Below are positions 11,123 to 64,000 of a DNA stretch of 64,000 nucleotides, piece by piece (position 1 is the stretch's first letter; each line of letters opens with the position of its first letter). The notes under the pieces were generated by a model, which searched no databases, was not told the origin of the DNA, and saw only the letters and a list, made by a program, of their open reading frames with translations. Source of the stretch: Octopus vulgaris (lineage: Eukaryota). Where the stretch lies: positions 44,826,001 through 44,890,000 of the forward strand of contig OX597823.1 in assembly GCA_951406725.2 (NCBI GenBank), in the 5' to 3' direction. A program made the translations under genes and the position numbers.

Positions 11123-12364
11123 TCAGAACATCCCATTAGTTCCGTCTGATTTTACCTTTTTTAAAATTGAATGAAATTTAAAAGTATTTTAGAATGTCTA
11201 ATGGAATTAAATATTATTTTTATGCATTTGTGTACATTTAAACTAATTAAATATTGTTTTACAGAATAATAGAATTAAAATTTCTTTGATTAAAACACTT
11301 TCTAACATGGAAGTATCCAAAGAGCATTTGAGGCACATAATGCTTTATGAGTACAAAAAAATAAACTCTGCAGCTGAAGTGACTCGAAACACACACTCAG
11401 TTTATGAGAAAGAATGCTTGAATGAAAGAACTTGCAGAAGATGGTTTGCAAAATTCAGAAGTGGAGATTTCAGCCTTGAAGATAAAGACCCAGTTGAGTT
11501 TGATGATAAACTCCTTGAGGCATTACTTGAAGAAAATCCTGCATTATCAGTTGAAGAATTGGCAATAAAGCTTAGTTCAAATCATACAACTGTTCATCAT
11601 CATCTTCAACAACTTGGAAAAGTTCCTAAACTTGGAAAATGGGTGCCTCATGAATTGTCCAAAAGCAACCACAAATCCCGAGTTGACATCTGATCTCTCC
11701 ATTCTCGTGACTGGTGACAAAAACTGGATCTTCTAGTGGAATGTTAAACGTTGTAAACAGTGTCTTGGTAAAAGGGAAAAAGCTTAACCACAACCAAGAA
11801 GGGAACTTCATGGAAAGAAAGGTTCTTTTCTCTATCTGGTTGGATTGCGAAGGAGTAATTCACTTTTAATTGTTACCACCTAATGCAACAATCAATGCTC
11901 AAGTCTACTGTCAACAATTAGAGCATTTGAACCAAGCTTTGAAGGGAAAAGACCCCACTTTAGTGAATTGAAAAGGAATGATGTTTCATCAGGACAATGC
12001 GTGACCCCACACTGCAAAGATCACATCACAGAAGATCAAAGAGCTTGGTTAGCAAAAAATTCCTCATCCACCTGATTCTCCCGACCTTGCTACTTCAGAC
12101 TACCATTTGTTTTGTAGTTTACAAAATCATTTGGCTGACATGACTTTCGCAAGCCAGGAGGAGGTCGAAACTGACATTTCAGAGTTCTTTGCTTTGAAAC
12201 CAAAAGAGTTTTACATTGATGGGATTAAAAACCTTGTAAATAGATGGAAGGAAGTCATAGATAATCAGAGAAAGTACATAGATGATTAAATTTCAATTAA
12301 ATATAACATTTGATCACTTGTTTTCTTTATCTAAAATTCGGACAGAACTTATGGGATGACCTGA
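11123..12364 (+). mobile_element. Mariner transposon, near full length, transposase pseudogenised (ATG 11307 to 12289)
   Basis: ~30-bp TIRs (TCAGGTCATCCCATAAGTTCTGTCCG-like) with 3' TA. Motifs WFAKFRSGDFSLED, WVPHEL, VTGD, FHQDNA*PH, SPDLATSDYHLF; stops and frameshifts. Confidence 0.93.
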
Positions 12365-39563: not shown

Positions 39564-41830
39564 TGTGCACAGAAACATGAAATAAACAATTCACAAGAAG
39601 GATTATTTCGAGGAAAAGATTCAATTAGAAATAAAAGACGGGAAACTAGCAATACAAAAAGATGAATGAACATTCTTCTATTTAACATAAATGTGAAGTC
39701 GTCATGTGTCATTCGCAGCAGAGAGAGACAGAGGAAGCAACTCCAAACCAATAATCGTGCTGCAATGTTTGTCTTCCAGCTAACATGTTGACACAGTCTA
39801 GCAGACAGAATAATAAATAATTTTCAAGTCGGGGCCGACGACCGATATAGTAGAAGAGCTTGTCCTATTTATTTACGAGTTCGACTCTCGTCAAAGTCGA
39901 AAGTGTCGATGACAACAGTAGAGTATAGTAGTGAATATTTCGGAATCTAACCAGTAGTGGTTTGGATTTTTTGCCCCTCGGGGACTTGCACTGCAATTTA
40001 TTCAGTGAAACCTATTTTGCAGTCATCTGTCAATATAAGAAGAAATCACCGGCATCTTGTCATTATGCCAACTGTACATTCTGGTAGCAAGTGGAAATAT
40101 CTTCACATACATTATTCACATATCTAGGCTAGGAAACGTCAGTATTCCTTTTCACAAGAAATCTACCAATTATTTGTTTTCGAACACCACTAACTTTTAT
40201 GCCTTTATTATCGATTAATATATATATACATATTATACAGACAATAGGTGAGAGCTAAATATGCTCATTATAGAAAACACGTAGTAGTGCTTAAATGGAT
40301 TTAGAGCACCACTTAAACGCCGAATTCTTCATTTAGGACTAGGTCCACAGCGTCAAGAGTGGCGATAAGAGAATCCAAAGCGAACTGACCACTACCATAT
40401 ATATATATATACACATACACACATACACGAATGTATGTACGTAAACTCTTAATCCTATTTTTGGGTTTTGAACATTAGAGAATCAGAAATCTGTAAAAGC
40501 AATTTTGTTCTAGTCCAATTTTTTTTTTCCCAAAAACTTATTTTTTGTAAATGAGAAACTGATTTGCATATGCAATATTTCTTAGAATAAAAATGTACTT
40601 CGTGCGCATTCGTAGTGAATGTATTTTTACGTTTCAAAGAATTCATGATAAATTATAATTTTCATGTTGAAAATGTAATTCATTACAAATCCAAACAATT
40701 TGAGCACTTCAAATGCAAACTAATAATACACTTATTGGGATACACAATGGAATCATGTACAGGAAATAAATATTACCATTATCGAGTCAATGGGGGGGGG
40801 GGGGCTATCTAGGTGGTAGTTCCACTTGCTAGAAATAGCAGCCAAATCTCCCTTCACATCCTAATGTCTTTAAAAAAGAAAAGAAACACTGGATAACGTA
40901 ACCATGAAAATACGGAAAGGCAAGGTAGTCATGACTGGAATAATTGATAATAGGTCAGTTCGATTGGGGTTGATCGAGAACAAATCAACAAACACTCAAG
41001 AGATGGGACTACTTCACTAACGCCATAAGACCAACACAATAAACGCGGTGCAAAATTATGTGACTCGATCATCGAAACAAGATAAACTGGAGCAGGACGG
41101 TGATATTTTTTTTTAAAAAACAAAAACACGTCATTTTATCAGTGAAAAATGCACTTGTTGCCAAGAATTATCATACACCTAAGAAACGGGTAGGTGGGGT
41201 AACAGAGGGAAAGAGTACTTGTTGCCAAGAGTTACCATTCAACTTATTATCACACGCAACTTACGTCAATTGGTCTGAATCAATTTAAAATAAGTACCCA
41301 CCAATTACTAACATCAAAACTAACTACTACTTCCGTTAGAAATTAAATTAACGTCCCCCAGACAGATAGGTTACCAAAAATCCTTATTTCGTTTAATTAT
41401 TATAATGTATAAAATCACGGATCAGGTTGGTAGTGATGATGCTGCTGTTGTTGTCGCAGTACTGTGGACGATGATGATGGCGGGACAGATGCATGTATAA
41501 AGCGCCATCACAAACAGTGTTGGTGGTATTGCTATTGGTGATATCGATGTTAGTGTTTAGCCCGATATTAAATCTGACAAAGTAGATTCATGATTAAAGG
41601 CGTTTGTGATATGATCGTCCAGTTTCATTTTTCAGTAGAGTACCCTATTTACACACTTTTTTTTTTTCCAATAGGGTGTCATTTGAAGGAGATTTAGTTG
41701 CTATTTGCAGCAGGTCAAGCAACAAATAGTGAAAAAAAAAACAATAGAGAGGCTCCTCTCATTGATTATGATATTGATGTTGGAGACCCACCCCTTCCCA
41801 GAGAGATGAAACGTGAATAAAATGACTTAC

Positions 41831-43379
41831 CTGGAGTCCCTTGTAAAGACCGAGTCGAAGTTTCGGGTGAACTGAATGATTGTTGCGAGTAACGTACTTC
41901 CTCCTTGATCCTGTTATCGCTCAACATGGTCTGCTTCTTTTCGAGCTCATTGAGTTCTTTCTGGTAGAGTTCCTTCTGTTGTTCTTGAATCTCTAGCTGT
42001 TCTTGCAGGCGCTGTTTTTGACGTTGATACTCCTTAAACAACTCCGTGTTGGTGGACCCAGCAGGCCCTGGCGTGGAAGAGGCGGTGGTGTTCAATTTGA
42101 GGTGTTTGGGGGAATCTGTTACTGAAGCAGTGAGATTATTGTTTACGGGTGAGAAAGAACGAGGTGGTGTACCAGAGGTACCTGGCTTGACGTTCTTCGG
42201 AGTGCGTAACGGCGACGATGTCACTGAAGATGACGAACGAAATGAGCGCGAATCGTCGGAAATTGAGCTTTGGGTGTTGATGACCTCGCTTTCTTCGAAC
42301 AGCTTGTCCATCGACATTTGCATAGGATTCTTTTTCATATTGAATAGCCTGGCTGCAGGGGTCATGGAGCGCGACATAGGGCTAAGTCCATCACCCGAGT
42401 CTCGACGTCCTTGCCATAAGCCGCTAGACAGGCCGTCGAACTGTGGATTTAGTGAGCGGGTCATCATGTCAGCGCCTCCCCTCGGACGAGTGGTGGGTAC
42501 ATGCGAGTGCGGGAACATGCGAGGTTTGATAGGGGTGACAAGAATCTGTTCCGACCAAGACGCTTCCAGAGATGGTTTTGTCATTGGCCGAATGTCGACA
42601 TTCATAGTCTTCTGTTCAAAAGGGCAAGAAAATGTGTCCGTCGGAATACTTTGCAACCAGGAGAGGAGGCTCAAATCAGCATCGCTGAGACCAGTATCGT
42701 TCAATAGAGATGCAAATTTCAATTCCATTTCATCTCCGTTGCTGGTTGCTTTTGATTGACAATAATCTACACAAGATTCATAGAGCAAACCTTTCAGGAG
42801 TAATTGTAACAAACGGTCGTTTTTGGCCACCAGATTGTTCTGGTCGTTTTTACGTTCGAATGGTAGCAAGTGTTCAACCAACGGATAAACTGTCTTGAAG
42901 CACTGGGCACGGGCATTACTCGGGTTCCAGTTTTGGTAATCGATATGACTAGCCAAACGAGGTAAGGTCAGTAAAAGACAGAGGTTGCTATATTCTTCTT
43001 TGGTCGGGCAGAGCGACTCAAGCGAGTTGAGACATTTGACCACTTCGTCGACTGTAAAGTCGTAATTGGCCATAATACTAGGCTCAGATTTGATACACAA
43101 TAATTCCAGATATTTGTGTTTCATAATAATATACTCAAAACGTTTCGTGTCAAAATCATCAACACTGCCCAACGGCTGAACGAAGTCCATCACATCGTCC
43201 CACTGACCATCGAGTATCAATTGACGCAGGAAGAGCATGTCGTCTGAAAAAAGTCCATTAATGACTCCTGTCTCTCGTTCGAGAGACATCATTGAAATGT
43301 TCAGTTCGCGATTCTGAAGAAATTCCGTCACAAGACGGAGTACGTCTGTTTCATTAACTACAATATTCGCAGCCGGCAT
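41831..43379 (-). CDS. WDR47: WD repeat-containing protein 47, first coding exon (LisH + CTLH + Ser/Pro-rich linker + coiled coil); WD40 exons not found in window
   Basis: Translation (VLRLVTEFLQNRELNISMMSLERETGVINGLFSDDMLFLRQLILDGQWDDV, KYLELLCIKSE, LLLTLPRL, NDRLLQLLLKGLLYESCVDYCQ, SDADLSLLSWLQ) matches the WDR47 N-terminus. Consensus donor CCAG|GTAAGT at 41831/41830, phase 1. Confidence 0.93.
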
Positions 43380-44596
43380 TTTCAGAAATAATTAAATAGA
43401 TCTCCCACACAAAAAAGAAATATTATTTTTTCAATAACAAAAGTGTTCACTTCAGGAAATGAAAAGAAAAGGAATTCTTTGCAAAGAAAAAGACTTTTTC
43501 CTTCTCTTTTTTTTGCACTAAAATAGATTTCCCATATCTTTGTTGAATTTTAAAACAAAATCTTCCGATATTTAAATTATTGCGTCACGACTCCATGACG
43601 CAGTTTGTCATTGTCGGAATCCAACTGTCTGAAGACTATTTTCAGGCTTGTAATGAATTTAACAGAAAAAGAAGGAAAGGGTAGAGATAAATTAGATAGA
43701 TATAGGATGGAAATAGACAAGGTAAGAAATATGCATTACAAAAATTGACAGACAAAAATAGAAAGATTTATCAGGTGATATCAATCGGCAGATTAACCGT
43801 TCACAATATAAGTTCCGTTGAGTGAATTAGAAAAAAATCCGAGATTTTGGTAAAACAGTGTAAACTAAATAAATCCATGGATTATCAAAGTAGCAGCCAC
43901 AAGACACATGTAGATGTCGGACTTCGAATAGCAGAGGAAAAGATCGGACCGAACCGAGTAAAATCCCAGATAAAATGATAATAAATGTATATTCACACAG
44001 CTGCAGAATTATTGGAAAAAATCGTGTAATACCTTACATTGGCGACGTTTACTTTTGGGCCAAAGATGTAAATTCTCCTCTTTTATATACATCTTCATTC
44101 TACTGAATCAGTTTTGTTTTCACAACTTGCAGCCATTCAGCCTGGCGTTTATTGCCGGAAGTTGCCGACAAATACCGTAAAGGAAAAAAAAAATGAAATG
44201 AAACATTAAATAGATATTTTAATAAATAATATTGTTTATCAATTTTATTTTTATATTTCAAGGATAATCTATGCAAAAAAATTCAGTATGTTAAATAACT
44301 ACGAAATGTTTTATCTTTAAATAAACTCGAACCAAAGCATATAACATAGGAAACAAGCTCTCATGTTTATGAATATTAATTGTGTTGGCTTCAAATAGAT
44401 ATAAAAAGTTAAGTACTTACTGTTTGTAATGAAATAAGCTATCAATAAACTACGACAGTTGTTATAACTGCGGATATTTTACTTGAAATAAATTAATGGG
44501 TTGATGAGGAAGTTTGAGTTTCGAAACCGGACCGGAAGAAGATATTTTTTTTTAGTATTTTTCTTTACTTCCTGTTTGTAATTTTTTTTATCCAAG
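43380..44596. promoter_or_regulatory. Shared bidirectional promoter / 5'UTR region of WDR47 and EEFSEC
   Basis: Divergent ATGs about 1.2 kb apart. No recognisable TE and CpG retained. ETS-like CCGGAAG at ~44155 and ~44532; inverted TGCGTCA/TGACGCA at 43581-43602. Confidence 0.7.
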
Positions 44597-56356: not shown

Positions 56357-57476
56357 TTGGGTCATCCATAAATAATGTGGTTTTTTTCAATTGCGAACTA
56401 AAAGTTGTAAGGGGATGGTATAAACTACCTGCATCAACTTGTTATAAAAGCAGGTAGTAATTTTACCTTGTACATATTCTTTGTGCAAATTTTGAAGAGT
56501 GCAGTTCGATTTTAAGTTATTTTTTCAAAGCTACAATGGAAATGACAGAGGAGCATATTTGGCATATTTTGCTTTATGAGTTCAATAAAGGCAACAACAT
56601 AATGGAAAGTGCGAAGAATATTAGTGCCATATATGGGGATCGGACAATAAGTGTAAGCCAGTGTCAGTGGTGGTTCCAGAAATCCCAAGCTGGCAACTAC
56701 AGCCTAGAAGATGAACCTCATCCCGGAAGATCTGTAGAGCTCGATGAGGACATCCTGCAAACCCTGGTGGAACAAAATCTTATCGTAACTATTGAGGAAC
56801 TAGCAGGGAAGCTTGGATTTGGTCATTCAACCATTCATCAGAAAAGTCAGGAAATTGGGTCAGTGGGTTCCTCACAAACTTTCTGAGTCTAATCGCGTGC
56901 AGAGAGTGAATGTGTGCTCTTCTTTGCTGTCATGTCATATGAATGAACCTTTTTTTGGACCAAAGGCAGAGGTAAGGAAAGGAGAAACATTGGCTCTCCA
57001 AGCTAAAGAAGGTCTTCACTCATGTAAGGTATTACCTGTTTGGTAATACCTTACATGCTGTGAGCAGCTTGGGCAGCTTCAGTCAATGCTAGAAGAAAAG
57101 CGACTGTCTTTGGTTTCAAGACGAAAGGTGTTCTTCCATCAGGCCACATACAGCGAGGATGACATTCCAAAGGCTGGAACAATTTGAATGGGAAACAATG
57201 TCCTGCCCACCATATTCGCTAGACATTGCCCCATCTGATTATCATTTATTCTGCAGTTTTCAAAATCATTTGGATGGAAAAAAATAGGAATTCTGTAGAC
57301 GAGATCAGAAGAGTACTGGAGGAGTATTTTTTATCATGGACTGGTGAATCTTGGAAGAGGAGCCTTGTAAAAAATGAAGGAGAGTATATTTTAGATGAAA
57401 AAAGAACTTTGTTTATCTTAATTTTGAAAAATAAAAGAAGTATAAAAAAAATCGCATTATTTATGGGATGACTCAA
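56357..57476 (+). mobile_element. Mariner transposon, internally deleted, in EEFSEC intron 3
   Basis: TIRs TTGGGTCATCCATAAATAATG / CATTATTTATGGGATGACTCAA, both flanked by TA. HTH ORF 56536-56886; WVPHKL; PPYSLDIAPSDYHLF; first two catalytic motifs lost. Confidence 0.92.
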
Positions 57477-59701: not shown

Positions 59702-59717
59702 CTTTACTGCCATATTG

Positions 59718-60134
59718 ATATTTGATTATAAAATTATGAGATTTTCTTTTAAGCATCAATCTTGTATGGGTGTCCAGTAGAGAGTAAAACAAAAATCAAA
59801 GGGGTCCACAGGCAAAAAATGGTTGAGAACCACTGCCCTAGAGTAAGACGCTTGTTACTGTCCCTCTCTCAGACTTTAATTGTTCATCTCCTGGCATTAA
59901 ACCACTAACATATTTTAGCAGTTTTTTTAGTACAATTTCTAATAATATTTGATTACAAAATCATGAGATTTTCTTTTAAGCATCAATCTTGTATGGGTGT
60001 CCAGTAGAGTAAAACAAGAATCAAAGGGTTCCACAGGCAAAAAATGGTTGAGAACCACTGCCCTAGAGTAAGACGCTTGTTACTGTCCCTCTCTCAGACT
60101 TTAATTGTTCATCTCCTGGCATTAAACCACTAAC
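59718..60134. repeat. ~190-bp direct duplication containing a hAT-like end
   Basis: 59718-59909 approximately equals 59945-60134. Each contains GGTTGAGAACCACTG (hAT/Charlie-type TIR) followed by CCCTAGAG. Confidence 0.85.
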
Positions 60135-61440
60135 CTCACTTCTCTATGTGGAGTCAGATCTGGCAGTGTTTCTACAGCTGGATGCCCTTCCTAACGCCAA
60201 CCACTCCGAGAGTGTAGTGGGTGATTTTATGTGCCACCGACACAGGTGCCAGACGAGGCTGCCAGACGGCCACGCTCGGATGGTGTTTTTTATGTGCCAC
60301 CGACACAGGTGCCAGAATGAGTAATCTCATGATGCACTAGTGTCCTGTCCAGGTGTGCGGAATATATATATACCATGAAGCCGGGATACTGGCCCTTATT
60401 AGTCGGTATGACTCAAGAAGGTAACTTTTTGATTTTTGCCCTCACAACACTCAGTTGAGGAGTCTTGTCTTGTGAGTTACTTGGTGACCTCATTGGTGCT
60501 GGTGCCATATAAAAAGCACCCAATACACTGTAAAGTGGTTGGCATTACGAAGGACACCCAACCATAGAAACGATATCAAAGTAGATAAAGGAGTTTGTTA
60601 CAATCCTCTGACTCACAAGCTCCTCTCAAATCTTCCAGCCCTTACCTGCATGCAAAACAGACATTAAATGGTGATGGTTATAATTGTGGGACCCCAATGT
60701 TGCAATACATTTTGAAGTGACAGTTATTTCAGTTTGAACTAACTTGATCTTTGAATCTTCAGTGGAGTACTTAGTCATTAGCTCTGTTTCCTTGGGCAAA
60801 TTTGGTTGAGTAATTTGCATTACATTTGTAAGATATTTCTATGTTGATAATGGTGAGACTTAATGATTTGTGCAAGATATTCCATTCAGAAATGAAAGAC
60901 TAGTCTCCATGTTCTCCACAATAAAGAAATTCATATCCACATCATGCTTGGTTGTTAAATGCAAATATGCCTTGACACTGGCTACATTTGTAATTTCTGT
61001 AGTGCCTTTAATGTGTATTTCTCATATTTAGACAAAATGCTGCAGTTGGCTGTATCTCTAGAGTAATATGTAAAACGTATGCAGAGACTGCACACAAACA
61101 AACATGCACACCATCAGGTTTATTTTATTACTACTTGTATCAGTTTAATTTTGTATACTGTAGTTTATTTCACTTACTATCTTCCCCCTTTTCTGCAAAT
61201 AGGGTGCCTATACCAGAAGAATCATGTATATATCAACATGCATTGGTCCAAGAAACCAGACATTGTAAATGTATTCTGTTTATTTAGATCACCTTTGATA
61301 GAGAGTAAAAATAAAATAGAAAAGCTTAGACTATAAATATATGCAACAGCTGATATGATGATCTAAATGCATCTACTTTCATCTTGAGGAATTGAATATC
61401 TAATTCTATGTTTGCAATCTTCCTATTTGTATATTTTCAG

Positions 61441-61524
61441 ACCATTGAAATCCCATCTCTGAAAGTGACCAAGAATGTTAAATCTATGCAAATGTTTCGT
61501 TTACCTGTTGAGAAAGTTGTTCAG
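61441..61524 (+). CDS. EEFSEC: eEFSec coding exon 5; gene continues beyond window
   Basis: Acceptor attttcag|, TIEIPSLKVTKNVKSMQMFRLPVEKVVQ (VKSMQMF motif), donor CAG|gtcagt; 84 nt. Confidence 0.93.
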
Positions 61525-62040
61525 GTCAGTGAAGAATAAATGTATCTATGTTATTTAATCCTCATTGAGTACACCTATAATGAAAGGCATTCACACTCAA
61601 CAATCCAACCATCTTTTTGTATGCCTAATATGTTCTTTAAGATGTTAGTGTTATGTCTCTCCCATGTTTCTCACTGAAAGAATTTATGTCATAGTAATTC
61701 CTTGGTTGTTCCAAACTGATCAGTTTTTACTTCCACCATTTTGTTTGTTTGGAATTTTCATTCTTTTTCCATTTTCTTTGCTTCATTTTTCTTCCTTTTT
61801 ATCTTTGTCAATGACACAAAACACACACTATATATATATATAATCTCGTCAGTAATATATATATTGAAATGTATGAAAAGCCAAATGCTTTATGGATGCA
61901 AAACCCTGGGTAACCCAATGAACCAGCCATAACTCTTTCTCTAAATATATATATATATATTCGACTTTTTTGTTATTTCCTTGTTAAGTTTTCTTACCAC
62001 TTTTGCTTTCTTAGTTATTCCCCCACCCCACTCTTGTCCA

Positions 62041-62162
62041 ACCAATGATGACTAAACTCTGCGCAAATATGAAGTATGTCCTTCAAGTGTGTCTGGCTCC
62101 AATGATAATCCTTTGTTGAGCCAACAGCTTGAACATACACTGTTTTAAGAGTGTTCTGAGGT
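62041..62162 (+). ncRNA. Candidate box C/D snoRNA/scaRNA, copy 1 (EEFSEC intron 5)
   Basis: ACC...GGT terminal stem; box C ATGATGA 62045-62051; putative D' ATGA 62069-62072; box D CTGA 62156-62159; internal hairpin; host-sense; paralog 1.16 kb downstream. Confidence 0.65.
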
Positions 62163-62339
62163 AATATGCTAATCATATCAATATTAAGTATTTAAAAAAA
62201 TGTTAAATGTTACACTGAAGCCACAATGGATTTTGCCACAATTGTCATGATTTTTAGTTAGCAACTTCAGAAGAAATATAAGGAATTACATCAGGACTGT
62301 TTGTGAAACTGTTAAAAGTATTGAACATTGTATACAGAG

Positions 62340-62780
62340 AACGTGCTGAGTGTTCAACAATGGTTATTCACTCAAATTTAGGAAACTTTGTTAGATCATG
62401 AAAAAGATGATAGCCCAAGTTGTTTTTGGAGGGTAGCCATCTGGGCCTTTTGGGCTCATGTTGACAACTGCACTGTTTAATACCTTCCTCATCTGTACGA
62501 CCATGCTGCTGTACATATAATGGAAATGGAGGTGATTCGAAGTGAACCTTTTCAACGTCAGAGAAATGCAAGGTACCAACAAGTTAACAACTGAATAGTT
62601 CATTGAACTACATTAGTCTGATGATAGTGTTTTCAGTGTTCACACTTCAGAAGCACTATAAGCCACCATAGCAACCATTACATTTTATGGAAAAAATGGG
62701 CCTGATAGTTAACTTCCACAAGCAGACCATTTGTGAATGGTACACTGTATCCCCACAACACACCTGCTTATTCACTTTCT
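62340..62780 (-). mobile_element. Degenerate LINE (RTE-like) fragment between the two C/D RNA copies
   Basis: Minus-strand PKRPR / PKTTW remnant resembling the GKRPRGRPKTTW C-terminal motif; frameshifted. Confidence 0.45.
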
Positions 62781-63199
62781 CAATACAACAGCAACAAGAA
62801 GCTATATCTTCCTTTCTAATTCCCATACTTGAACATTATCATTTCTAGTGAATGCTTAACTACTATCTACTGGACAGTCTGTATTTTCACTCTTCTGTCT
62901 AGGTGTTAGTCATGGACTTCATACAGCTGATACATTGAAACAGTGGAAATCTTTTACATCCAATGTCTGTTGAAGATCTTTTTACTCACCTGTTTAAAAA
63001 AAGAATTATGTACATGCAAATCTAACACCAGCAGCATTGAATCCACCCTAAATCATCTTCTATAATCAACTGTCTCTTCTACTTATTCAACTGAATTGTG
63101 CAATTTGTTTTTCTAATTTACTCTTTCAGTCACTTTCTTTCCTTTGGAAGTTTTCTTACCTCTTTGCCTCTCTTAGTTTTTTTTTCCCCTCTTGTTGCA

Positions 63200-63307
63200 A
63201 CCAATGATGACTAAACTCTGCGCAAATATGAAGTATGCTCATCAACTATGTCTGGCTTCAATGAGCCAACAGCTGGGGCATACAGTGTCTTGAGAGTGCT
63301 CTGAGGT
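63200..63307 (+). ncRNA. Candidate box C/D snoRNA/scaRNA, copy 2 (EEFSEC intron 5)
   Basis: Box C 63204-63210, box D 63301-63304 followed by GGT. 40-nt 5' block identical to copy 1; compensatory change in the internal stem. Confidence 0.65.
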
Positions 63308-64000
63308 AATGCTGCAACATATTCCCTATACTTTTACCAAAGGAGAAACAATGCTATTATTTCTTAGTGAACCTATTAGAAAAGATAATAGTTCTGGTTT
63401 ATCTTTTCAGTATTTTGTATTGCAGCACAATATCAAGTGTGTATAATGTGTGTGTGTGATAAGTGAACGAACAGTTTTCCACTACTACCCTTGTTCTTTA
63501 AATCAAATTTCTTTGTTAAAAATTGTATTGTAGATAGTTGTTTACTCAAATATATTTTCTTTCTTTCTACATTTCCTCATTAATTGGTTCTGACCAGTTT
63601 GCAGCAGTATTGTCACAAAAACAAATTTACTCTAGTAAAGTTGAGTCAGTTTTTTGTTTTTTTATATTTTTGAAGAAAATCAAGATGTTGTTAGAGAGAA
63701 GCATGTATTGAGTGATATTAATGCATTTACCCTCATGGGTTCCATAATGGAAATGAGATGTTCATTGAAGAGAACATGCAAAAAGATCAAGCTCCAATCT
63801 GATCTGGCAGAGTTTCTACAGCTGTATGCCCTTCCTAATGCCAACCACTCTGAGAGTGTAGTGGGTGCTTATACATGCCACTGGCACGAGGGCCAGTCAG
63901 GCGGTACTGGCAATGGCCACGCTCAAATGGTGTTTTTTATGTGCCACCTGCTCAGGAGATAATTTTGTTAATTAGCTAACCTAATTAACTGGCAGTGAGT

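What the first reader, a model, noticed from the sequence alone, without database searches (positions are those of the whole stretch)
62041..63307. Duplicated intronic box C/D RNA in EEFSEC with a covarying hairpin and a U4-complementary guide
Seen: two host-sense copies (62041-62162, 63200-63307), each reading ACC-A-ATGATGA...CTGA-GGT. A 40-nt block (box C, guide, putative D') is identical while the flanks have diverged. The internal stem covaries: GTATGT/ACATAC in copy 1 versus GTATGC/GCATAC in copy 2, with TGGCT(T)C/GAGCCA kept. Recalled, not checked: CTCTGCGCAAA is complementary to the invertebrate U4 5' end (UUUGCGCAGAG), and the layout resembles vertebrate U91/SCARNA17 (U4-C8 guide). Inference: an unannotated cephalopod scaRNA pair. 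The +5 rule from ATGA points to U4 G7, one base off vertebrate Cm8, so this is either a different site or another target.
Basis: partly seen in the sequence, partly recalled or inferred. Interest (0 to 1): 0.75.

Follow-up and report, generated by a model that had tools for sequence, protein, structure and literature searches.

The report
Intronic U4 guide RNA, shifted site
Two copies of a small guide-RNA gene sit in one intron of the selenocysteine elongation factor gene and match the start of this animal's U4 splicing RNA over 11 letters; they are likely invertebrate relatives of the vertebrate U91 guide and are predicted to place a methyl group one letter earlier (G7) than in vertebrates (C8).

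Summary
Observation confirmed. Two box C/D RNA genes (62041-62162, 63200-63307) lie in coding intron 5 of EEFSEC, an intron spliced in 4 of 4 RNA runs; only these two copies were found in the genome. The guide forms 11 Watson-Crick pairs with nt 4-14 of this genome's U4 and follows U4's change at position 13; rRNA, U2, U5, U6 and U12 give no comparable match. Both copies weakly hit Rfam RF00283 (U91). A metagenome scan gave 10 distinct homologues with terminal stem and box D (0.9 expected). All 10 share the window's register (D'+5 = U4 G7), whereas 10 of 10 vertebrate sequences give C8. The shift is thus family-wide, not a slip. The window's UAUGA D' equals that of yeast U18, which methylates at +5 and +6, so C8 may be modified too. 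Expression, methylation and Cajal-body location are untested, and no known Cajal-body signal is evident, so 'scaRNA' is unproven. The scan noted a similar pair before in an arthropod SPT6 gene (e1-7833854). Verdict: a new variant of a known family, of moderate interest.

The parts
61441..61524 (+). EEFSEC coding exon 5 (upstream of the host intron)
   Evidence: Translation, exon order, joined to the next exon in 4 of 4 RNA runs
61525..64000 (+). EEFSEC intron 5 (2861 nt, GT..AG; ends at window-equivalent 64385, beyond the window); host of both copies
   Evidence: Splice joint skipping 2861 nt in 4 of 4 RNA runs from 3 studies; next exon matches human eEFSec at E 2.4e-74
61973..62019 (+). Pyrimidine tract upstream of copy 1, 81% like 63135-63181 upstream of copy 2 (co-duplicated flank)
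62041..62162 (+). Copy 1 of the U91-like box C/D RNA (122 nt; 3-bp terminal stem)
   Evidence: 41.2 bits with a model built without it
62045..62051 (+). Copy 1 box C
62057..62067 (+). Copy 1 guide, 11 Watson-Crick pairs with U4 nt 4-14
62068..62072 (+). Copy 1 D' box: AUGA at 62069-62072, or the 5-nt form UAUGA as in yeast U18
   Evidence: precedent PMC5389607
62074..62138 (+). Copy 1 apical hairpin between D' and C'
   Evidence: MFE -23.0 kcal/mol, z -5.25
62140..62148 (+). Copy 1 candidate degenerate C' box with insertion (inferred)
   Evidence: Aligns with the RUGUYAA element that follows the hairpin in homologues
62156..62159 (+). Copy 1 box D
63200..63307 (+). Copy 2 of the U91-like box C/D RNA (108 nt)
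   Evidence: 38.1 bits
63204..63210 (+). Copy 2 box C
63216..63226 (+). Copy 2 guide, identical to that of copy 1
63227..63231 (+). Copy 2 D' box (AUGA at 63228-63231, preceded by U)
63233..63283 (+). Copy 2 apical hairpin, 14 nt shorter at the tip
   Evidence: MFE -17.7 kcal/mol, z -2.93; alignment
63285..63293 (+). Copy 2 candidate degenerate C' box (inferred)
   Evidence: the segment from here to box D also aligns with the 3' part of the Rfam RF00283 consensus
63301..63304 (+). Copy 2 box D

Best explanation
The two elements are box C/D RNA genes in EEFSEC intron 5 whose guide is complementary to nt 4-14 of this genome's U4 snRNA; they are likely stand-alone orthologues of vertebrate U91/mgU4-8 and are predicted to direct 2'-O-methylation of U4 at G7, possibly also C8. 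Shown: the boxes, terminal stem, hairpin, 11-bp duplex, splicing of the host intron and homologues in other animals. Inferred from established C/D biology: the RNAs would be trimmed out of the excised intron and bind 15.5K, NOP56, NOP58 and fibrillarin. They would pair with free U4 before U6 takes the same arm (U4/U6 stem II), and fibrillarin would act on the nucleotide paired to the fifth base upstream of D', which is G7. Because D' reads U-AUGA as in yeast U18, a second fold of the C'/D' motif could add C8. The two copies are a local tandem duplication with identical guides, so they are likely redundant.
For: (1) 11 of 11 Watson-Crick pairs with U4 nt 4-14, -19.6 kcal/mol, with both U4 types tested. 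The six best U4 genes all begin with this target. (2) Guide and target changed together: U4 has A13 and the guide U, where the vertebrate guide has A. Position 13 is unpaired in the U4/U6 duplex here and is a pyrimidine mismatch in human (PMC12324492), so it is free to vary. (3) Best rival site: 9 pairs with 2 G-U in an 18-kb rDNA unit, and 6 or fewer in U2, U5, U6 and U12. (4) RF00283 is the only family hitting both copies (18.4 and 16.9 bits). (5) Of 49 distinct metagenome pattern hits, 10 have a terminal stem of 3 bp or more plus box D (null mean 0.9, max 4 in 200 shuffles). All 10 have the extra A giving D'+5 = G7, and 0 of 23 hits with the vertebrate one-nt spacing have a stem. Six of the stem-bearing or held-out homologues have canonical CUGA at D' (L033 group, L046, L055, L078, L079, L022). 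(6) A model built from 11 homologues without the window's copies scores them 41.2 and 38.1 bits. The next hit in 94 kb scores 16.1, and chance pattern matches score at most 24.7. (7) Between L019 and L020 the RNA is 96/116 identical, against 48/106 and 45/106 for its flanks. (8) Vertebrate register: 10 of 10 sequences have one nt between guide and CUGA (PMC4041459 supplementary Fig. S5); human Cm8 is assigned to scaRNA17 (PMC7960923). (9) The D+5 rule and the U18 exception: PMC8053127 and PMC5389607.
Against: No small-RNA or methylation data were available; only assembled contigs could be laid. The Rfam scores are far below the gathering threshold of 40 (E 1 and 2.8), and nothing passed at gathering level. 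I found no report of U4 Gm7 in any organism (searches; the Drosophila passages read name only mgU4-65 or give no U4 site in the text). Homologues were found with a pattern built from the window and the vertebrate consensus, so box C, guide and D' match by construction; only the stem, box D and register are independent. U4 from the homologue-bearing organisms was not seen, so G7 there assumes the same U4 5' end. C' is degenerate. RNAalifold on five members gave no covariation support for the hairpin (covariation term +1.68). U1, U11, U4atac and U6atac were not screened as targets.
Confidence: 0.62

Rival explanations
1. Same guide RNAs, but only C8 is methylated, as in vertebrates, through a D'+6 register (5-nt D' box or a one-nt bulge).
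For: C8 is the established human site. D'+6 is G opposite C8. Non-C D' boxes can shift the site to +6 (yeast snR13 and U18). The window has AUGA and 6 homologue groups have UUGA.
Against: Several homologues have canonical U-CUGA in the same shifted register, and making D' canonical in U18 reduced the +6 site and left +5 unchanged. The pure +6 case needs a C at the last guide position; here it is U.
Confidence: 0.2
2. The RNAs are expressed and pair with the U4 5' arm but do not methylate it (chaperone or handover before U4/U6 annealing), or their real target is another RNA.
For: C' is degenerate. No invertebrate U4 methylation near the 5' end was found in the papers read. U1, U11, U4atac, U6atac and mRNAs were not screened.
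Against: The D' box and its distance from the guide are kept in all 10 stem-bearing homologues, as expected of a methylation ruler. No better target was found in rRNA, U2, U5, U6 or U12.
Confidence: 0.1
3. One or both copies are silent or decaying duplicates of a guide gene that works elsewhere.
For: No discrete transcript was shown. Copy 2 lost 14 nt of the hairpin tip. A homologous second copy in L025 has a degenerate D'.
Against: No other copy was found in the genome by DNA search (2 matches) or by pattern (3 matches, the third lacking D' and scoring 17.1 bits). The 40-nt functional block is identical while downstream flanks are at background.
Confidence: 0.06
4. The elements are fragments of a transposon or of U6 retrocopies, and the U4 match is a by-product.
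For: U6 nt 63-76 resembles the guide plus D' in the same register, and U6 copies are numerous (48 matches listed).
Against: Only two copies were found. There is no U6 hit at E up to 10. The guide follows U4 at position 13, where U6 does not pair. Complete C/D anatomy is kept in unrelated host genes.
Confidence: 0.02

Closest known systems
U91 / mgU4-8, the 3' box C/D domain of vertebrate SCARNA17 (mgU12-22/U4-8); Rfam RF00283, labelled SCARNA18
   Same: Box C, short spacer, guide to the U4 5' arm, D' box, box D and short terminal stem; 17 nt from box C to D' in both human and window; both copies align end to end with the Rfam model.
   Different: Here the RNAs are intronic monomers, not an independent capped Pol II transcript. 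No U12-G22 domain was found nearby (best complement 9 nt in 30 kb). The guide window is slid by one nt (U4 4-14 rather than 5-15), so D'+5 is G7. D' is AUGA, the apical hairpin is long (108-122 nt RNA against an 83-nt model) and C' is degenerate.
Yeast U18 (also snR13, U24): C/D guides that modify two adjacent nucleotides from one D' guide
   Same: D' AUGA preceded by U, and a candidate C' with an insertion.
   Different: Unrelated family with an rRNA target; the dual activity here is only predicted.
Intron-encoded vertebrate C/D scaRNAs with a long apical hairpin (U90, mgU2-47) and Drosophila C/D scaRNAs
   Same: Intronic, long hairpin between D' and C', snRNA target.
   Different: No GU/UG wobble stem (longest GU/UG run 6 nt) and no Drosophila-type GUUAnUG motif in either copy.

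Membership tests
Box C/D guide RNA | Box C (RUGAUGA) and box D (CUGA) at the ends, joined by a terminal stem | tested here: met
Box C/D guide RNA | About 10 bp or more of complementarity to a stable RNA just upstream of D or D' | tested here: met
   11 Watson-Crick pairs with U4
Box C/D guide RNA | Internal C'/D' motif | tested here: inconclusive
   D' is AUGA; C' is only a degenerate candidate
Box C/D guide RNA | Host-sense position in a spliced intron (or own promoter) | tested here: met
Box C/D guide RNA | Discrete stable RNA bound by fibrillarin, and methylation of the target | not testable with these tools
   Only contigs were available
U91 / mgU4-8 (RF00283) | Score at or above the Rfam gathering threshold (40 bits) | tested here: not met
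   18.4 and 16.9 bits; four metagenome homologues likewise score 19.6-22.6
U91 / mgU4-8 (RF00283) | D' guide antisense to the U4 5' arm, 16-17 nt between box C and D' | tested here: met
U91 / mgU4-8 (RF00283) | D'+5 target is U4 C8 | tested here: not met
   D'+5 is G7; C8 is D'+6
SCARNA17 (full mgU12-22/U4-8) | Upstream second C/D domain antisense to U12, in an independent Pol II gene | tested here: not met
   Intronic; no U12 5' complement above 9 nt in window-equivalent 40000-70000, sense strand
scaRNA (Cajal-body RNA) | GU/UG wobble stem or Drosophila C/D-type CAB motif | tested here: not met
   UGAG tetramers occur (2 in copy 1, 3 in copy 2, one of them overlapping box D) but are too short to count
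scaRNA (Cajal-body RNA) | Accumulation in Cajal bodies or WDR79 binding | not testable with these tools
   Needs FISH or immunoprecipitation

The most novel reading that the evidence does not exclude
U91 is an ancient animal guide that exists in invertebrates as a mobile intronic monomer and methylates U4 at G7, a modification I found no report of. Vertebrate Cm8 arose when the guide slid by one nucleotide, and the fused, independently transcribed SCARNA17 came later still (lizard, turtle and coelacanth sequences lack the U12 guide seen in mammals). The window's UAUGA D' box would be a natural dual-site (G7 plus C8) version of the family.
Probability: 0.3. Interest if true: 0.6.

Novelty: new variant of a known kind. 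Interest (0 to 1): 0.42.

Why it matters
If right, it extends a guide family modelled at 83 nt (Rfam misses these copies at its threshold) to diverse other animals and predicts a U4 modification, Gm7, inside U4/U6 stem II, the helix that keeps U6 inactive until spliceosome activation. It would be a clear case of a modification site moving by one nucleotide through guide slippage, and a cheap natural test of the overlapping-D'-box model in an animal. The biology is housekeeping, and no unusual mechanism is needed.

Tried and rejected
Rfam at gathering level: no hit in the window. A second, D-side guide: both copies can pair 11-12 nt (3 G-U) with a conserved 28S stretch, but 23 of 150 and 67 of 150 shuffles do as well and the segment is not kept in homologues; rejected. 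A third genomic pattern match (L084) has no D' and is a chance match. The 39 distinct metagenome hits without a 3-bp stem were not counted as homologues in the 10-of-49 count. Among them, the L026 group (2-bp stem) was nevertheless used in the model, L022 (no box D) scored 46.4 as a held-out sequence, and the rest scored 24.7 or less. Relatives B, C and D are too close to test conservation, and the difference table was cut. No RNA holder was listed on record. In four runs guessed to be RNA, one low-depth contig covered copy 2 (window 63195-63386) and none listed covered copy 1; contigs cannot show ends, so this counts neither way. Taxon assignment worked only for L046 (94% to a brittle-star OTUB1). 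L025 is an animal KIF23 with arthropod and gastropod hits of 83-90%; L020 matched one unnamed protein; the Atlas gave only generic dsRBD clusters under 0.9 for L026. No guide-like string was found in the Drosophila snoRNA supplement of PMC11014333. PMC6984369 does not mention this family. Marz et al. 2011 (PMC3256416), which surveyed exceptional animal scaRNAs, and two Deryusheva papers with snRNA maps were not held, so invertebrate U91 homologues or U4 sites may already be in print there.

Full report
Observation. Each has box C, an 11-nt guide, one U, AUGA, a hairpin, box D and a 3-bp terminal stem. The identical block is 40 nt. The bodies match at 95 of 122 columns, the downstream flanks at background (about 50%; null mean 45%, max 55%), and the 100 nt upstream at 65 of 107, so part of the upstream flank was duplicated too. 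The hairpins fold better than dinucleotide shuffles (0 and 3 of 300), but the covariation between the copies is one two-sided and one one-sided change. No other such C/D element lies in the window.

Host. The gene is EEFSEC: the downstream exon matches human eEFSec at E 2.4e-74, and Pfam domains agree. Five coding exons precede the intron. The intron (61525 to window-equivalent 64385, 2861 nt, GT..AG) is skipped in contigs of 4 of 4 runs guessed to be RNA, from 3 studies.

Copy number. A DNA search of the genome gave 2 matches. A pattern search gave 3, the third without D'. These searches skip common words, so they give lower bounds, but there is no sign of a transposon.

Target. The six best U4 genes share a 5' end that pairs with the guide over nt 4-14, 11 Watson-Crick pairs. 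The best alternative was 9 pairs with 2 G-U in an 18-kb rDNA unit, and 6 or fewer in U2, U5, U6 and U12; U1, U11, U4atac and U6atac were not tested. U4 has A13 here and the guide has U opposite it, where the vertebrate guide has A. Position 13 is unpaired in the predicted U4/U6 duplex and is a pyrimidine mismatch in human (PMC12324492, passages). The guide therefore followed a change at a position that U6 does not constrain. Counting from AUGA, +5 is G7 and +6 is C8.

Family. Rfam gives nothing at gathering level. At low stringency RF00283 (labelled SCARNA18; that this is U91 is my recall, consistent with its match to the 3' domain) hits both copies end to end, at 18.4 and 16.9 bits. Human U4 Cm8 is assigned to scaRNA17 (PMC7960923, passages). 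In the vertebrate alignment of PMC4041459 (supplementary Fig. S5, read), 10 of 10 sequences have one nt between guide and CUGA, giving C8. The U12 guide of the upstream domain is visible in the seven mammals but not in lizard, turtle or coelacanth. The human RNA is independently transcribed and lacks GU repeats (passages).

Homologues. One metagenome pattern scan, which allowed both the one-nt and the two-nt spacing, gave 64 loci, 49 of them distinct. Ten have a terminal stem of 3 bp or more with box D, against 0.9 expected (max 4 in 200 shuffles). All 10 have the extra A and thus the G7 register, and 0 of 23 hits with vertebrate spacing have a stem. D' is CUGA in five of the ten and UUGA in the other five. 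They lie in different hosts: KIF23, OTUB1 that is 94% like a brittle star's, a dsRBD gene for the 2-bp-stem L026 group, and exons I recall as U2SURP-like and NAA40-like; some have no exon nearby. L019 and L020 keep the RNA at 96/116 while flanks are at background. A model from 11 homologous sequences, without the window's copies, scores them 41.2 and 38.1 bits (next hit 16.1). Held-out L022 and L046 score 46.4 and 36.6, and chance pattern matches at most 24.7. L025 holds a second copy whose hairpin core nearly equals that of copy 1. Limits: the boxes and guide match by construction, most taxa are unknown, these organisms' U4 was not seen, and consensus folding of five members gave no covariation support.

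Mechanism. Shown: anatomy, duplex, host splicing and conservation. Inferred from established C/D biology: release from the intron, assembly with 15.5K, NOP56, NOP58 and fibrillarin, pairing with free U4 before U6 anneals, and methylation at D'+5 (rule as stated in PMC8053127, passages), which is G7. In yeast U18 a D' of AUGA preceded by U gives both +5 and +6, and a canonical D' reduces +6 (PMC5389607, passages and Discussion). The window has that same motif, so G7 plus C8 is plausible here, while homologues with CUGA predict G7 alone. I put 0.62 on G7 being modified (alone or with C8), 0.2 on C8 only, 0.1 on a non-methylating role or another target, 0.06 on silent copies and 0.02 on a repeat or U6 fragment.

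Is it a scaRNA? Neither copy has a GU wobble stem or the Drosophila C/D-type CAB motif. The line between scaRNA and snoRNA is not sharp (PMC6298559, passages), so the target does not settle location. It works like U91, but it fails the Rfam threshold, the C8 register and the SCARNA17 architecture; I file it as a variant of the family.

Literature. Nine searches (listings) showed no invertebrate U91 and no U4 Gm7. The Drosophila papers (PMC3884663 passages; PMC13228274 passages and section 7; PMC11014333 passages and supplement search) gave none in the text seen; figures and the PMC13228274 supplements were not seen. PMC6984369 (term search) does not mention the family, and PMC4914119 was used only for a reference. 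Marz et al. 2011 was not held and may already list invertebrate homologues. It came after my reading was set, and I did not check its locus.

Verdict. A real, duplicated, intron-encoded U4 guide of the U91 family with a family-wide one-nucleotide shift relative to vertebrates. New variant of a known kind; interest 0.42.

Noticed in passing
L003 (G000:C18), L004-L007 and L008 (G000:C4): The genome has at least three U4 gene types with the same 5' arm but different 3' stem-loops, plus many truncated copies.
   Followed up: partly
L091:1563-1576 (U6 nt 63-76) against window 62060-62073: U6 resembles the guide plus the AUGA D' box in the same register. The guide part is expected since both pair with U4; the matching UGA may be chance or hint at an old origin from a U6 copy.
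   Followed up: partly
L025:2233-2340 (-) and L025:1422-1533 (-): Two copies in one KIF23 gene; the extra copy has a degenerate D' and a hairpin core nearly equal to the window's copy 1.
   Followed up: partly
L022:37-145 (+): Homologue without box D, joined directly to a long kinesin reading frame; looks like a chimeric contig.
   Followed up: no
L033:1838-1925 (-): Weak SNORD12-family hit (22.6 bits, E 3) about 300 nt upstream of the homologue on the same strand; possibly a non-coding snoRNA host gene.
   Followed up: no
window 41769-43391 (-): Open frame of 541 aa head to head with EEFSEC, about 1.2 kb from its start codon region; recalled as WDR47-like, not tested.
   Followed up: no
window 11247-11690, 12099-12235, 56461-56883 (+): Fragments recalled as mariner-type transposase.
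   Followed up: no
window 60154-60309 and 63798-63956: High-copy interspersed repeat; thousands of RNA contigs lie on the copy in the host intron.
   Followed up: no
window 59713-60134: Tandem duplication of about 225 nt at 94-98% identity in EEFSEC intron 4.
   Followed up: no
L094:3963-8852 and L095:2688-5330 (-): rRNA genes are long: 28S 4890 nt and 18S 2643 nt, against Rfam models of 3401 and 1831.
   Followed up: no
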